Shown piece by piece: positions 57,995 through 62,332 of a DNA stretch of 64,000 bases (its first letter is position 1; each line of letters starts with the position of its first letter). The notes beneath the pieces are model-generated. The model searched no databases. It saw nothing but the letters and a program-made list of their open reading frames with translations, and was not told where the DNA came from. Made by a program: the position numbers and the translations under genes. The DNA comes from Escherichia phage myPSH2311, in the sequence record MG976803.1; one strand, given 5' to 3'.

Positions 57995-58462
57995 TTACTC
58001 TACCTTAACTGAAGGACAGTATTTCTCTTTCTTGCTGCGATACATCACAACAATCCAGTTTGAATCACGACGTTGCTTTTTAAGTCGTTTCTTTTCGGCA
58101 CGAATTTCGTATGTGCTATCTCGGCGATCTCGGAGTTTGTCACGCACCTTAGTTAAAAGCCACGTTGTACCAATTATGAAACCGACTAAGCTTCCAGCAG
58201 CACCTAAACCAACCATAGGAGCAGCAAACCAAGTCCACCATACAAACGTACCTGCTGTATCGTGCCCCATCAGTGAGCCTCCGATAAGACATAACGCTAC
58301 ATATACCATAGCGGATAGCACTATTAATACAGCAAAGTTTTGAACTGTTCGCCAGAAGTATTCACAGAAGTTGGTCATGTTGTCCCAATGATAATTGGGT
58401 AGGTTTGACATATATTTGTTGAATCTGTGCAACCAGCCGTTCTTGTTAATCTTGATCATCAT
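57995..58462 (-). CDS. membrane protein
   Basis: 155 aa with two hydrophobic helices and basic C-terminus. Confidence 0.45.
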   Translation of the reverse strand: MMIKINKNGWLHRFNKYMSNLPNYHWDNMTNFCEYFWRTVQNFAVLIVLSAMVYVALCLIGGSLMGHDTAGTFVWWTWFAAPMVGLGAAGSLVGFIIGTTWLLTKVRDKLRDRRDSTYEIRAEKKRLKKQRRDSNWIVVMYRSKKEKYCPSVKVE

Positions 58463-58692
58463 TCGCCTTTCTTAGCACGATCTTTGGCAGTTTTGCCAGT
58501 GCGGATGCGATGAGAAACGTTAACCAGAGTGCCACCATCAACTACGGTAACGCTCTTGTTTTTAGCCAGATCAAATACAGTCTTCTCTGTGCCACCCAAG
58601 CGAATTTGCTTAGGCTCACTGAAGGTTTGGGTTGATTTGGATTGGAACTGGAACGGTTGACGGATTGCATCGATTGCGCTTACTTTAGACAT
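58459..58692 (-). CDS. small protein, paralog-family member
   Basis: 77 aa; related to the GDVF-motif family. Confidence 0.4.
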   Translation of the reverse strand: MSKVSAIDAIRQPFQFQSKSTQTFSEPKQIRLGGTEKTVFDLAKNKSVTVVDGGTLVNVSHRIRTGKTAKDRAKKGE

Positions 58693-58947
58693 AGTGGAAA
58701 TTCCTTAAAAAGTTATGGCTGCGTAGAGGGAATTCTCTACGCAAATTGGACCGCCTAAAAAGAGGCGTCATAGTACTAAAAATAAGGCGTAGCGTAGTAG
58801 AGATGAGTCAGCATGTAATGCGTGATGACGTCGTTTTTCGTCCGTATTACAAACCAGATAATTGAACCGTCAGGCTGGCGTTGACCGAAGCCTTTCTGGT
58901 TGATCATATCATCATAAGAATATGCTTTTGTTTTCACTTACTTACCC

Positions 58948-59250
58948 TTACATCGGAGTTAAGATGATCTCTGCTTTGGCAAACTTCTCGCCAACTTCAA
59001 GAGTGTCAGAAACAGGACGAGGTTCGATGTGCAGTTCGTCCAATTCATCAAGACCTTTAACAGATAGTACACCTGTGGATAGATTCACTACAGGAACCCA
59101 GCCACTGGCTATACGGATGTTACCAGAAGCATTTTCAACCCTCATATAATACTGAGGAGAGGCACTTCCGTGCTGAACCATGAAGGGGTTTCCGGGAATG
59201 ATTGTTTCCAATCGAACCGTATTATCCTTTTTCTTTGGGATGATTTTCAT
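58948..59250 (-). CDS. small protein, GDVF-family paralog
   Basis: 100 aa; IIPGNPFMV variant of the motif. Confidence 0.4.
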   Translation of the reverse strand: MKIIPKKKDNTVRLETIIPGNPFMVQHGSASPQYYMRVENASGNIRIASGWVPVVNLSTGVLSVKGLDELDELHIEPRPVSDTLEVGEKFAKAEIILTPM

Positions 59251-59591
59251 TATGTATTATCCACCAAAAGTTCTGCCGACACAGGAATAACTCGACAATA
59301 AATAGAAGGTGCTGTTACATTGCCATCAGACAGACGAAGAGTGATTGATCTGTCAGAGTTGATAGTAACGTTTGGACTTGCAGACACAGACCCTTTGACA
59401 TACAGGGTTGCATTGTCAGGAAACTTAAACACAGCTCCGCTGGGAAGTGAGTTGAGGTCAACTGTAGTCACTTCTTCTTTCTTGTGAGTAATCTTCATAT
59501 TATTTACCCTGAATAATAAGTTTAGATTCGAACAGATCAACAGTATTGGACAAAGGGACAGGAAAGAAAATATCTTTAGGGTTCCGAACAC
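59250..59591 (-). CDS. small protein, GDVF-family paralog
   Basis: 113 aa track ORF; motif SLPSGAVFKF; real start probably the internal MKITHKK. Confidence 0.4.
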   Translation of the reverse strand: MFGTLKIFSFLSLCPILLICSNLNLLFRVNNMKITHKKEEVTTVDLNSLPSGAVFKFPDNATLYVKGSVSASPNVTINSDRSITLRLSDGNVTAPSIYCRVIPVSAELLVDNT

Positions 59592-59730
59592 ACATTGCAG
59601 AATGCTCCCCTGTTTTTATCCAGAATTTAGGGACTACATCGTCACCAGTAAAACGAAAAACATCTCCATTCTCCAAGTCAGAGAAAGTCTTGGAGGGTGT
59701 TTTGCTTTTTGGTACTAGCTCAAAATTCAT
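59500..59730 (-). CDS. small protein, GDVF-family paralog
   Basis: 76 aa; motif DLENGDVFRF. Confidence 0.4.
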   Translation of the reverse strand: MNFELVPKSKTPSKTFSDLENGDVFRFTGDDVVPKFWIKTGEHSAMCVRNPKDIFFPVPLSNTVDLFESKLIIQGK

Positions 59731-59738
59731 CTTGATTC

Positions 59739-60050
59739 CTATTTAAGTTTGAGGCTAATGTTAAGGTGCATACATGCTCTGTTCTGTACAGCAGCATAAC
59801 TTCTACCGAGCATGTCAGCCATTCTCTGAATAGACATGAACCCAGCATTACGGATAAGGAACTGGTCCTCTTCTTCAGACCATTTAACTCGGATTGAAGC
59901 TCTTGATATGCCGAATTTAGTGCAAGCTGTGTTAACAGCATTCTCCGTTACATTCATAATCTGAGCTACTTCTTGAACCGAGTACTCTTTGATTAGTCTC
60001 CGAAGATTTTCAATCTGCATCGGAGTCCATATAGTTCTTCGTGCTTTCAT
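59739..60050 (-). CDS. HTH DNA-binding protein, putative transcription regulator
   Basis: 103 aa with two helix-turn-helix-like segments. Confidence 0.4.
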   Translation of the reverse strand: MKARRTIWTPMQIENLRRLIKEYSVQEVAQIMNVTENAVNTACTKFGISRASIRVKWSEEEDQFLIRNAGFMSIQRMADMLGRSYAAVQNRACMHLNISLKLK

Positions 60051-60404
60051 ACATCCTCCAATTAATTGTTAAAACTATCAGGGGAGAACACTAGCTCTGG
60101 GCCACGCTGTAGATATCGGCCTACCTTCCACAGCTAATCAGCTAATATACTCCCCTAATAGTTTATGAATAGGGGGAGGGGACGAATCCTCCCTTATCCT
60201 ATTAGTTAATATTGCATGTAAGATCTAACAATCGGTTGCCTTTGTAGGAATAAGCGTAAAGCCAATCCAGCACTAAACTCCCGCCCCCTTAGTGGGCTGG
60301 GTTATTAAAGGGTAACGCCCTTATGGGCTAGTTACATGAATGTTAGTTTGATAGGAGATCTGAAGTCCTATCTCAAAGGACTCTCGTAAGAATCCTTCAC
60401 GATA

Positions 60405-60639: not shown

Positions 60640-60720
60640 TCAGAACTTACGAGCACCACAGCAAGGAGAGTTGACATAAGAGTAACCAGCTTGTGTATTC
60701 TTGATTGTTTGCTTAGACAT
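60640..60720 (-). CDS. micro-ORF, 26 aa
   Basis: ATG preceded by AGAGGAAG; MSKQTIKNTQAGYSYVNSPCCGARKF. Confidence 0.25.
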   Translation of the reverse strand: MSKQTIKNTQAGYSYVNSPCCGARKF

Positions 60721-60846
60721 TTGAGCTTCCTCTTGTTAGTTTAGGTAAACCACCCCAATCACTGCTGCACTCATTCATGTGGAATGCAGATGGGAAAAGT
60801 AATTAAAGGTGATTTACCTAAAACAACAAAGGCCACCCGAAGCCAG

Positions 60847-60954
60847 CTAAGCTACTGACATTGCATGAATCCAAAAGCCTTCCAGTTTCAGAGCACCATT
60901 AGCTACTGCATCCATACGTTCAGGGCGGTTCATACGTTTGGTTGATACTTTCAT
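60847..60954 (-). CDS. micro-ORF, 35 aa
   Basis: ATG in ORF-poor region, weak SD. Confidence 0.2.
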   Translation of the reverse strand: MKVSTKRMNRPERMDAVANGALKLEGFWIHAMSVA

Positions 60955-61312
60955 ACCTATCTCTCTTTGTTAGTGGAGGCATTATTGCCAGTTGATATAA
61001 GGGATAGCCCTAGTCAGTAGACTAATCCTGACCGCGTACTCATTGCCGACCTTCTCTGCCTAAGAGTTCAGGTTCTAGAGCTATCTCTTATTCCAACTGG
61101 TGAAGACTCCCTACCCCTAGGAAGTCTCCTGAATCCCAAACTAATACGTACCCCTACATATCAGAAAGTCTTTCGAAAATTAACAGGTTTTAGTCTAGCA
61201 CCGGATGTTCGAGCAAGCTCTCCCTAGCGGTGTGGCATATGCCTGAATTAATAAGTTAATGAGGAACACCCTCACATAGCCCTCTGATAAACACAAGGGC
61301 TATAAGTCGATG

Positions 61313-61531
61313 TTACTTTTGAGTCAAACACAGATCGGGACGTGGCATAACAGTGGTTGATAGACCGAAGACTTCAACATAACCGCTGCTCAAGTTAGCA
61401 GCCTTACGCAAACCGTCAGAGGTCTTATCTTCTAGCATCAGCCAGAAACGTTTATCGTAAGAGAAAACATCACCGCCCTTAACATCTTCTGCATTTGCAT
61501 ATTTAGGATAATCAACTACTTTAATTTCCAT
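61313..61531 (-). CDS. small protein, GDVF-family paralog
   Basis: 72 aa; motif DVKGGDVFSY. Confidence 0.4.
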   Translation of the reverse strand: MEIKVVDYPKYANAEDVKGGDVFSYDKRFWLMLEDKTSDGLRKAANLSSGYVEVFGLSTTVMPRPDLCLTQK

Positions 61532-61789
61532 TCACTTACCTTTATTAGTAATTACTGCATCTGGGATAAGGATTACAGGAAGATTTGAATTAAGCTTCAT
61601 AACCTGATTAGTTCTTAAACCAAGCACAACTGTTCCAGAATCTTTCCTGTTCGACTCGGTTACGTGTGGAGTGAATAAACTAACAACCAAATAGTGATCG
61701 ACGCATGTAGATTTAACTTGGAATACATCTCCAAGCTTTAAATCACCCACTGTAAGATCTGGGTCTTTCATCTCAAGATCAATCTTCAT
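61532..61789 (-). CDS. small protein, GDVF-family paralog
   Basis: 85 aa; motif DLKLGDVFQV. Confidence 0.4.
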   Translation of the reverse strand: MKIDLEMKDPDLTVGDLKLGDVFQVKSTCVDHYLVVSLFTPHVTESNRKDSGTVVLGLRTNQVMKLNSNLPVILIPDAVITNKGK

Positions 61790-62015
61790 CTTTAGCCTCT
61801 ATGTTGGTTATGTGAAGATCACTACGTACTTGGCAGACTTCATCCCGTTTAAAAGGCATGAGCTTTCCAGTTACCACATCAACACAGTTGACATAATTGT
61901 CTGCGTACAATGTGTCGGTTCTGATGTAAAGGGATTCTTTACGCTCAAACAGAACCCCCGGCTTCATGTTATTTAAGCGAAGCATTGTACGATCGGATTT
62001 AATATTAACTTTCAT
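61779..62015 (-). CDS. small protein, GDVF-family paralog
   Basis: 78 aa; motif NMKPGVLFER. Confidence 0.4.
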   Translation of the reverse strand: MKVNIKSDRTMLRLNNMKPGVLFERKESLYIRTDTLYADNYVNCVDVVTGKLMPFKRDEVCQVRSDLHITNIEAKDED

Positions 62016-62017
62016 CT

Positions 62018-62332
62018 TTAATCCACCTTATTGGTAAGTCGAGCATTATCAACTACCTGAACAACAGTATCTTTTCTCAACATTGTTATTCTATCCGAAG
62101 TGAGATCTACTACTACTCTTTCGTCAGGCTTCCAACTAGCTGAATAAACGGTTGAGGAATCTAGCTTTACTGTAAGATATATTTTATTTTTAGGTGGAAC
62201 AGTTTCAAAAACACTCCCCACCTTCAGGTCTTTCAGTTGCTTGACTACAGGGGCTGTATTAATATCATGCTTCATTGTTAATCTCCTGCTGTTTAGCAAT
62301 AGCCACTCGCAAGTCTTCATTAGCACGAGCAA
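62018..62332 (-). CDS. small protein, GDVF-family paralog
   Basis: 104 aa track ORF; motif DLKVGSVFET. Confidence 0.4.
   Translation of the reverse strand: MLVLMKTCEWLLLNSRRLTMKHDINTAPVVKQLKDLKVGSVFETVPPKNKIYLTVKLDSSTVYSASWKPDERVVVDLTSDRITMLRKDTVVQVVDNARLTNKVD

What the first reader, a model, noticed from the sequence alone, without database searches (positions are those of the whole stretch)
58459..62332. Expanded family of eight small early proteins sharing a G-D-V-F motif
Eight minus-strand ORFs of 72-113 aa (58459-58692, 58948-59250, 59250-59591, 59500-59730, 61313-61531, 61532-61789, 61779-62015, 62018-62332) share a pattern of hydrophobic, K, x, G, D/S/A, V, F near the N-terminus followed by beta-rich sequence. 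Arrays of small early paralogs are typical of host-takeover or anti-defence genes.
Basis: seen in the sequence. Interest (0 to 1): 0.6.

Follow-up and report, generated by a model that had tools for sequence, protein, structure and literature searches.

The report
Seven-copy small beta-barrel early phage family
Seven of the eight small genes (not the first) are diverged copies of one roughly 80-residue SH3-like barrel protein that this phiEco32-like coliphage carries in two tandem arrays among its early genes; the family is widespread in phages, has no name and no known function.

Summary
The window is a Kuravirus (phiEco32-like) genome, closest to ES17 and myPSH1131. Seven of the eight ORFs (B-H) form a real but very diverged paralog family (13-28% identity).

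- **Family test:** profiles built without a given orthogroup still recover it at E 4e-10 to 1.5e-3 against all 665 six-frame ORFs of the window. No unrelated ORF scores below E 0.15.
- **Excluded ORF:** the first ORF (58459-58692) is never recovered, lacks the motif and is strongly basic. It is not a member.
- **Coordinates:** two ORFs were over-extended; the true starts are 59498 and 62275. ORF 58948-59250 is an in-frame fusion of two neighbouring paralogs.
- **Distribution:** relatives include N4 gp21, PaP3 ORF65, LUZ24 gp7 and four genes of phage 7-11. About 630 clusters were found in a 1.84-billion-protein scan, plus five repeats in a bacterial SprT-like protease. There is no Pfam family.
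- **Selection:** orthologs are under purifying selection (dN/dS 0.03-0.24).

Function is unknown. The most likely role is a non-enzymatic binding scaffold. Early expression is inferred by synteny. LUZ24 gp7 is not growth-inhibitory.

The parts
58948..59250 (-). Member B, 100 aa. In-frame fusion: residues 1-68 are identical to ES17 gp095 (phiEco32 gp96 type), followed by an 8-residue linker and the last 24 residues of the neighbouring paralog ES17 gp094 (phiEco32 gp95 type). Motif GNPF at residues 20-23.
   Evidence: N-terminus phrog_7431, C-terminus phrog_12612; about 209 bp of ES17 replaced by 18 bp; leave-out E 4.5e-7
59250..59498 (-). Member C, 82 aa (phiEco32 gp97 ortholog). Motif GAVF.
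   Evidence: phrog_7832; E 1.2e-4
59500..59730 (-). Member D, 76 aa (phiEco32 gp98 ortholog). Motif GDVF.
   Evidence: phrog_10911; cross-hit phrog_6570 at 1.5e-4; E 4.5e-4
61313..61531 (-). Member E, 72 aa (phiEco32 gp113 ortholog). Motif GDVF.
   Evidence: phrog_6570; E 1.5e-3; hhalign E-G 73%
61532..61789 (-). Member F, 85 aa (phiEco32 gp114 ortholog). Motif GDVF. AlphaFold model with pLDDT 83.5 shows a five-stranded SH3-like barrel.
   Evidence: (phrog_9955)
61779..62015 (-). Member G, 78 aa (phiEco32 gp115 ortholog). Motif GVLF. An independent AlphaFold model built from its own orthologs only (pLDDT 79.5) has the same strand order.
   Evidence: phrog_16423; cross-hits 6570, 7832, 7431; E 1.8e-7
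62018..62275 (-). Member H, 85 aa (ES17 gp112 ortholog; absent from phiEco32). Motif GSVF. Closest paralog of F.
   Evidence: F-H E 5e-5; E 4e-10; 97.5%
58459..58692 (-). ORF A, 77 aa (phiEco32 gp93 ortholog). NOT a family member: no motif, pI 10.35, matches only phrog_6662. Listed because the finding included it.

Best explanation
The seven genes are tandemly duplicated, deeply diverged copies of one single-domain protein of about 75-85 residues. It has a short flexible N-terminus (MKI...) followed by a five-stranded SH3-like beta-barrel.

The conserved residues are the glycine and phenylalanine of G-x-V-F at strand 1, Y-M-K in strand 2, the V-N-L-x-T-G hairpin and V-x-P-V in the last strand.

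The copies sit in two tightly packed arrays, B-C-D and E-F-G-H, on either side of an HTH regulator gene in the leftward early arm of a phiEco32-like phage. They are most likely co-transcribed early by host sigma-70 RNA polymerase.

Every residue conserved across the paralogs is a glycine or a hydrophobic or aromatic residue; none is an invariant charged or catalytic-type residue. Each orthogroup also keeps its own sequence under purifying selection. I therefore infer a non-enzymatic binding scaffold whose copies have diversified to bind different macromolecular partners. These are most likely host proteins, so the role would be modulation of host physiology or of host defences.

Shown: paralogy, the fold prediction, purifying selection, copy-number turnover and the wide distribution in phages. 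Inferred: early expression in this particular phage, the binding function and the identity of any targets.
For: Family and fold:
- Leave-one-out HMMs and PHROG cross-hits establish the family.
- A seed HMM built from the window alone finds extra non-orthologous copies in phiEco32: gp104, gp109 and gp95.
- There are 7-10 copies per Kuravirus, falling into 12 sequence groups there (14 with the two phage 7-11 groups), with conserved order and presence/absence differences.
- dN/dS between orthologs is 0.03-0.24.
- Shine-Dalgarno-like sequences precede each ATG, and the genes abut or overlap by 0-11 nt.
- Two independent AlphaFold models show a beta-barrel with core pLDDT above 90.
- The G model retrieves the other paralog types plus N4 gp21 and PaP3 ORF65.

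Conserved positions:
- In the 1.84e9-protein scan, 630 clusters match at E<=1e-3. Among the 132 listed hits of 100 aa or less, G20 and F23 are 99% conserved, G53 90% and V64 92%. No charged or catalytic-type residue is conserved.

Early class:
- PMC8948821, PMC9965538 and PMC4281155; PaP3 ORF65 in PMC4707531.

Circumstantial:
- Gordonclarkvirinae are 'remarkably resistant' to restriction-modification systems with no known inhibitor (PMC11990801).
Against: - No partner, phenotype or binding has been shown for any member.
- LUZ24 gp7 gave no growth inhibition when expressed in P. aeruginosa. A toxic host-shutoff role is therefore unlikely, at least for that member.
- RNA polymerase purified from phiEco32-infected cells carries only gp36 and gp79 (PMC12276001), so these proteins are not stable polymerase ligands.
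- Four of the sequence groups occur in all eight kuraviruses sampled. That is less variable than typical anti-defence cargo.
- Pairwise profile comparisons are weak for B and C (hhalign probability below 20%). Their membership rests on family-level profiles.
- The domain also occurs as repeats in a chromosomal bacterial SprT-like protease. This could point to nucleic-acid or other ligand binding instead.
Confidence: 0.5

Rival explanations
1. The proteins bind nucleic acid, as many SH3-like barrels do (ribosomal protein L2 C-terminal domain, KOW, Tudor-like CarD and UvrD C-terminal domains). They would act on phage or host DNA or RNA, for example by modulating transcripts or DNA transactions, rather than on host proteins.
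Confidence: 0.2
2. The resemblance is chance or compositional. On this reading these are unrelated small beta-rich ORFs that happen to share a short motif.
For: Pairwise identities are 13-28%. Only F-H is significant pairwise. Most hhalign orthogroup pairs fall below 50% probability.
Against: Leave-one-out profiles recover every one of B-H ahead of all 658 other ORFs. PHROG cross-hits reach 2e-8. A profile built from kuravirus members alone hits N4 gp21 at 8.9e-9 and PaP3 ORF65 at 2.9e-5. Independent structure models converge on one fold and retrieve each other's orthologs.
Confidence: 0.02
3. The copies are decaying duplicates with no individual function, that is, neutral gene-array turnover.
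For: Copy number varies from 7 to 10. One copy in the window is a fusion produced by a deletion, and one in WFI101126 is split.
Against: dN/dS between orthologs is 0.03-0.24, with dS up to about 2. Reading frames are intact and gene order is conserved across the eight kuraviruses sampled, and the region matched 108 phage records. Each orthogroup keeps its own invariant residues, for example 22 invariant columns in the 44 G orthologs.
Confidence: 0.05

Closest known systems
N4 gp21, Pseudomonas phage PaP3 ORF65 and LUZ24 gp7, and Salmonella phage 7-11 gp110, gp112, gp131 and gp133
   Same: Same family by sequence profile (E 8.9e-9, 2.9e-5, 1.7e-6 and 1e-6 to 4e-3) and by predicted structure. 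Same size and the same end-to-end single-domain architecture. PaP3 ORF65 and LUZ24 gp7 are early genes.
   Different: These phages carry one copy (N4, PaP3, LUZ24) or four (7-11), against 7-10 in kuraviruses. None has a known function. LUZ24 gp7 was non-toxic on expression (PMC4635203).
SH3-like small beta-barrels: FeoA and the DtxR/IdeR C-terminal domain, ribosomal protein L2 C-terminal domain, KOW, Tudor and PWWP
PHROG families 7431, 7832, 10911, 6570, 9955, 16423, 12612 and 8365
   Same: Each window protein belongs to one of these families (E 1e-24 to 1e-49, H at 6e-13).
   Different: PHROGs keeps them as separate families of unknown function. The evidence here joins them into one superfamily.
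Clusters of small early 'host-takeover' genes in lytic phages (SPO1 gp37-60 module, LUZ24 gp1-13, T7 class I)
   Same: Position at the early end of the genome, small size, unknown or host-directed functions and dense operon packing (PMC6873191 abstract; PMC4635203).
   Different: Those clusters consist mostly of unrelated ORFans. Here a single fold has been amplified to about 7-10 genes per genome.

Membership tests
Kuravirus 'G-x-V-F' small-barrel paralog family (as defined here) | Recovered by a family profile built without its own orthogroup, ahead of all unrelated ORFs | tested here: met
   B-H: E 4e-10 to 1.5e-3, against 0.15 or worse for the best non-family ORF
Kuravirus 'G-x-V-F' small-barrel paralog family (as defined here) | The same criterion applied to ORF A (58459-58692) | tested here: not met
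   E at least 1.3; no motif; hhalign at most 1.7%; no hit with the broad HMM
Kuravirus 'G-x-V-F' small-barrel paralog family (as defined here) | G-x-[VLP]-F beginning at residue 20-22, in a single-domain protein of 70-100 aa | tested here: met
   for B-H. Among the 132 listed relatives of 100 aa or less, G20 and F23 are each 99% conserved
SH3-like small beta-barrel fold | Five antiparallel strands forming a small barrel of about 60 residues | tested here: met
FeoA / DtxR SH3-like domain (Pfam PF04023) | Match to the Pfam profile at or above the gathering score | tested here: not met
KOW / Tudor / PWWP domains | Match to the respective Pfam profiles | tested here: not met
Early (sigma-70-transcribed) gene class of phiEco32-like phages | Transcript appears early and depends on host sigma-70 holoenzyme | not testable with these tools
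   Inferred from orthology and synteny with the phiEco32 early arm. The consensus promoter scan is not above shuffled expectation (16 sites found against 14.1 expected)
Known anti-defence proteins represented in Pfam (for example Ocr, ArdA, DUF2829/Tad2) | Sequence match to a described anti-defence family | tested here: not met
   No Pfam or NCBIfam hits. No dedicated anti-defence library was available
Toxic host-shutoff proteins | Growth inhibition on single-gene expression | not testable with these tools
   The only literature data are for the LUZ24 gp7 homolog: it is on the list of 13 proteins tested but not among the four inhibitory ones (PMC4635203)

The most novel reading that the evidence does not exclude
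The 'GDVF barrel' is an unnamed, very widespread phage domain. It covers at least 630 clusters at 50% identity and reaches N4-like, LUZ24-like, 7-11-like, phi29-like and large uncultured phages, and it also occurs in a bacterial SprT-like protease. On this reading it serves as an evolvable binding scaffold. Its amplification to 7-10 copies in kuraviruses would then be a battery of inhibitors of host defence or stress factors, and would help explain why Gordonclarkvirinae resist restriction-modification and most tested defence systems without any known inhibitor.
Probability: 0.2. Interest if true: 0.7.

Novelty: new member of a known kind. Interest (0 to 1): 0.38.

Why it matters
Kuraviruses are being used as therapeutic and model coliphages (ES17, SU10, the BASEL phages Bas86-93), yet about two thirds of their genes have no assigned function.

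This work shows that roughly 7-10 of the early 'hypothetical' genes are one family with a defined fold, and that the family has relatives in N4 and LUZ24. That turns many separate ORFans into one testable problem.

It also gives a ready-made set of natural variants for binding-specificity studies, and it flags a domain that still lacks a Pfam entry. If the copies prove to be anti-defence or host-modulating binders, they would be a useful toolbox. If not, this remains an ordinary uncharacterised phage gene family.

Tried and rejected
- **Pairwise phmmer** among the eight ORFs: only F-H is significant, so this test alone is insufficient.
- **Pairwise hhalign of orthogroup profiles:** F-H 97.5%, E-G 73%, all other pairs below 50%. 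One unrelated pair (orf53 against F) reaches 8.9%, so this test alone cannot place B and C.
- **Pfam, NCBIfam and PDB sequence searches:** nothing meaningful.
- **Word-indexed homolog searches** returned orthologs almost exclusively: kuravirus-type contigs of about 70-80 kb or short fragments, plus PaP3 ORF65 and a Salmonella phage pSal-SNUABM-01 (about 90 kb) protein in the broadened search, all unnamed.
- **Fold search against afdb50:** the library was not available.
- **Original phiEco32 papers** (PMC2587145, PMC3275717) are not held. I could not check whether this paralogy was noted there.
- **Giant Rib-repeat surface proteins** in the representative scan (P0144, P0151) were judged spurious partial or repeat matches.
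- **Stable RNA-polymerase binding via a Tudor-like domain** was considered and set aside, because only gp36 and gp79 co-purify with the polymerase.
- **A sigma-70 promoter directly upstream of the arrays:** the scan is not above shuffled expectation.
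Full report
**Identity of the window.** Bases 58400-62400 match Kuravirus phages (Gordonclarkvirinae). ES17 and myPSH1131 match at about 99% identity and phiEco32 at 93%, and 108 phage records hit in all. Annotated regions of phiEco32 and ES17 let me name the ORFs of the finding:
- A (58459-58692) = phi32_93
- B (58948-59250) = phi32_96 type
- C = phi32_97
- D = phi32_98
- E = phi32_113
- F = phi32_114
- G = phi32_115
- H = ES17 gp112, with no phiEco32 ortholog

**Check of the observation.** The ORFs exist. Two were read from far-upstream GTG or TTG codons. C really starts at the ATG at 59498 and H at the ATG at 62275. Both have Shine-Dalgarno-like sequences and agree with the RefSeq gene models. 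This removes the apparent 92-nt overlap between C and D. The motif G-x-[V/L/P]-F begins at residue 20-22 in B-H and is absent from A.

**Is the similarity more than chance?**
- Pairwise phmmer against all 665 six-frame ORFs of the window is significant only for F-H (about 5e-5). Even so, the best non-self hit of each of B-H is another candidate.
- Against PHROGs, each protein has its own family. They also cross-hit each other's families: G against 6570 (2e-8), 7832 (4e-6) and 7431 (3e-4); H against 16423 (1e-6) and 7832 (1e-4); D against 6570 (1.5e-4); B against 8365 (2.6e-4). A hits only phrog_6662.
- An HMM made from the seven window proteins alone finds additional, non-orthologous copies in phiEco32: gp104 at 3e-9, gp109 at 1e-7 and gp95 at 1e-6.
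- The decisive test was leave-one-orthogroup-out. Profiles were built from 89-132 sequences, excluding the target and all its orthologs. Each recovers its target at E 4e-10 (H), 1.8e-7 (G), 4.5e-7 (B), 1.2e-5 (F), 1.2e-4 (C), 4.5e-4 (D) and 1.5e-3 (E). The target always ranks directly after the trained members. The best unrelated ORF scores 0.15 or worse, and A scores 1.3 or worse.
- Pairwise hhalign of orthogroup profiles is strong only for F-H (97.5%) and E-G (73%). B and C are therefore placed by family-level evidence rather than pairwise evidence.

Conclusion: seven of the eight are true paralogs at 13-28% identity, and A is unrelated. A is also strongly basic (pI 10.35), whereas the family members range from pI 5.2 to 9.3.

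**Anatomy.** The genes form two arrays, B-C-D (58948-59730) and E-F-G-H (61313-62275), all on the minus strand. Gaps or overlaps between neighbouring genes run from -11 to +2 nt. Between the arrays lie a sigma-70-region-4-like HTH protein (59739-60050) and about 1.26 kb with only very small ORFs.

Compared with ES17 and phiEco32, the window and myPSH1131 lack roughly 1.9 kb here. The missing DNA includes two more family members (the gp104 and gp109 types) and the tRNA-Arg gene.

B is a chimera. Residues 1-68 are identical to ES17 gp095, then come eight novel residues, then the last 24 residues of the adjacent paralog ES17 gp094. About 209 bp of ES17 sequence is replaced by 18 bp. This matches its split PHROG hits.

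Across eight kuraviruses the copy number is 7-10, in 12 sequence groups (two more come from phage 7-11). Gene order is conserved, with presence/absence differences and occasional split or truncated copies. Orthologs are under purifying selection: dN/dS is 0.03-0.24 at dS up to about 2. The genes are therefore real and individually maintained.

**Fold.** AlphaFold2 on F, using a 111-sequence family alignment, gives pLDDT 83.5 and pTM 0.71 with five strands. G was modelled from its own 43 orthologs only, which makes it an independent input. It gives pLDDT 79.5, with the core above 90, and the same strand order.

Foldseek against predicted viral structures retrieves the other paralog types for both models. 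It also retrieves N4 gp21, PaP3 ORF65 and small proteins of many other phages, including Hera, Myduc, Cronus, Seu621, MP2 and tf.

The conserved motifs map to structural elements, read on the G model:
- G-x-V-F opens strand 1.
- Y-[IM]-K/R lies in strand 2.
- V-N-L-x-T-G is strand 3 plus the following hairpin turn.
- V-x-P-V is the last strand.

**Distribution.** A profile of kuravirus members alone hits N4 gp21 (8.9e-9), 7-11 gp131 and gp112 (about 1e-6), 7-11 gp133 (4e-3), PaP3 ORF65 (2.9e-5) and LUZ24 gp7 (1.7e-6). A broader profile adds 7-11 gp110.

A full HMMER scan of 1.84 billion representative proteins finds 630 clusters at E<=1e-3. Of the 150 listed, almost all are stand-alone proteins of 67-97 aa aligned end to end. 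Among the 132 listed hits of 100 aa or less the consensus is MKI..k.k...v.l.dLk.GdVF....yYMktd....naVnL.tG.l..f..dt.V.Pv, with G20 and F23 at 99%. About ten hits are two-domain fusions.

The sampled contexts are a kuravirus-like contig with nine copies, a phi29-like contig and two contigs with arrays of small unannotated genes and a few Pfam-annotated ones. One chromosomal Tenacibaculum protein carries a SprT-like metalloprotease domain followed by five repeats of this domain (106 bits), so the domain is not restricted to phages. Two giant Rib-repeat proteins in the list are judged spurious. No Pfam, NCBIfam or PDB sequence relative exists.

**What it most likely does.**

Shown: a conserved scaffold whose only family-wide conserved residues are glycines and hydrophobic or aromatic residues; orthogroup-specific conservation, for example 22 invariant columns among the 44 G orthologs; tandem amplification and fusion; and location in the arm that published work assigns to the early, sigma-70-transcribed class in phiEco32, SU10 and YF01. 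PaP3 ORF65 is experimentally early.

Inferred: these are non-enzymatic binding modules that have diversified to recognise different partners, most plausibly host proteins.

Constraints from the literature:
- LUZ24 gp7 is on the list of 13 early proteins expressed in P. aeruginosa, and it was not among the four that inhibited growth. A generally toxic shut-off role is therefore unlikely.
- RNA polymerase from phiEco32-infected cells carries only gp36 and gp79. Stable polymerase binding is therefore unlikely, despite the Tudor/KOW-like fold.
- Gordonclarkvirinae are unusually resistant to restriction-modification systems without a known inhibitor. This keeps an anti-defence role attractive, but the link is purely circumstantial.

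The main rival is nucleic-acid binding. It is suggested by the fold class and by the fusion to a SprT-like protease. It is weakened by the slightly acidic pI of six of the seven members and by the lack of conserved basic residues. Chance similarity and neutral decay are rejected.

**Novelty and verdict.** The proteins themselves are already in public phage genomes as hypothetical proteins and in PHROGs as separate families of unknown function. I found no mention of paralogs or gene duplication in the kuravirus papers I searched for those terms. The two original phiEco32 papers could not be read.

This is a correct and useful observation, needing correction in one member and two start sites, about an uncharacterised gene family of an ordinary kind: small early phage proteins on a common SH3-like scaffold. 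It is moderately interesting as a lead, not a surprise.

Noticed in passing
window 49600-54620: There are three tandem copies of a unit of about 1.37-1.40 kb, 90-98% identical to each other. The unit repeats the C-terminal roughly 235-260 aa of an ATP-grasp-like ORF and the N-terminus (MSEVIYVATYGSLRRGQAN) of a gamma-glutamyl-cyclotransferase-like ORF; both labels are by analogy with the annotated 7-11 and phiEco32 neighbours, and were not scanned here. The ATP-grasp-like ORF has a full copy at 53396-54616 and truncated copies at 52030-52740 and 50628-51419. The cyclotransferase-like N-terminus occurs at 49627-49926 and 51197-51523. The myPSH1131 annotation hints at the same repeat. There is also an exact 110-nt direct repeat at 49497-49606 and 49707-49816.
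   Followed up: partly
window 58948-59250: Member B is an in-frame chimera of two adjacent paralogs (ES17 gp095 residues 1-68 plus the last 24 residues of gp094), created by replacement of about 209 bp with 18 bp. In myPSH1131 the same gene is instead truncated.
   Followed up: yes
window 60050-61313: Relative to ES17 and phiEco32, about 1.9 kb is missing here. The missing DNA includes the tRNA-Arg(TCT) gene, and ARAGORN finds no tRNA anywhere in the window. It also includes two further family members (phiEco32 gp104 and gp109 types). Only ORFs of 44 aa or less remain.
   Followed up: partly
locus L016 3583-5019 (Tenacibaculum MAG contig): A chromosomal SprT-like (HExxH) metalloprotease carries five tandem repeats of the same small-barrel domain and scores 106 bits against the family HMM. 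This domain architecture has no Pfam model.
   Followed up: partly
window 62761-63150 and 59739-60050: An early-region ORF matches Pfam Hydrolase_2 (SleB-type cell-wall hydrolase, E 1.7e-7). The gene between the two arrays is a sigma-70 region-4-like HTH protein (E 1.7e-7).
   Followed up: partly
window 62265-62561: The 98-aa ORF orthologous to phi32_116 is labelled 'DNA helicase' in several RefSeq records, but it has no Pfam hit. The label looks like an over-annotation. In EcoN5 the family members themselves carry the names 'endolysin', 'endonuclease' and 'DNA helicase'.
   Followed up: partly
locus L011 5100-5330 (LUZ24) and L004 24963-25340 (7-11 gp110): There is a possible additional, unannotated family member in LUZ24 between gp13 and gp14 (E 0.01). 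7-11 gp110 is a fourth member there, seen only with the broader profile (9.9e-7).
   Followed up: no
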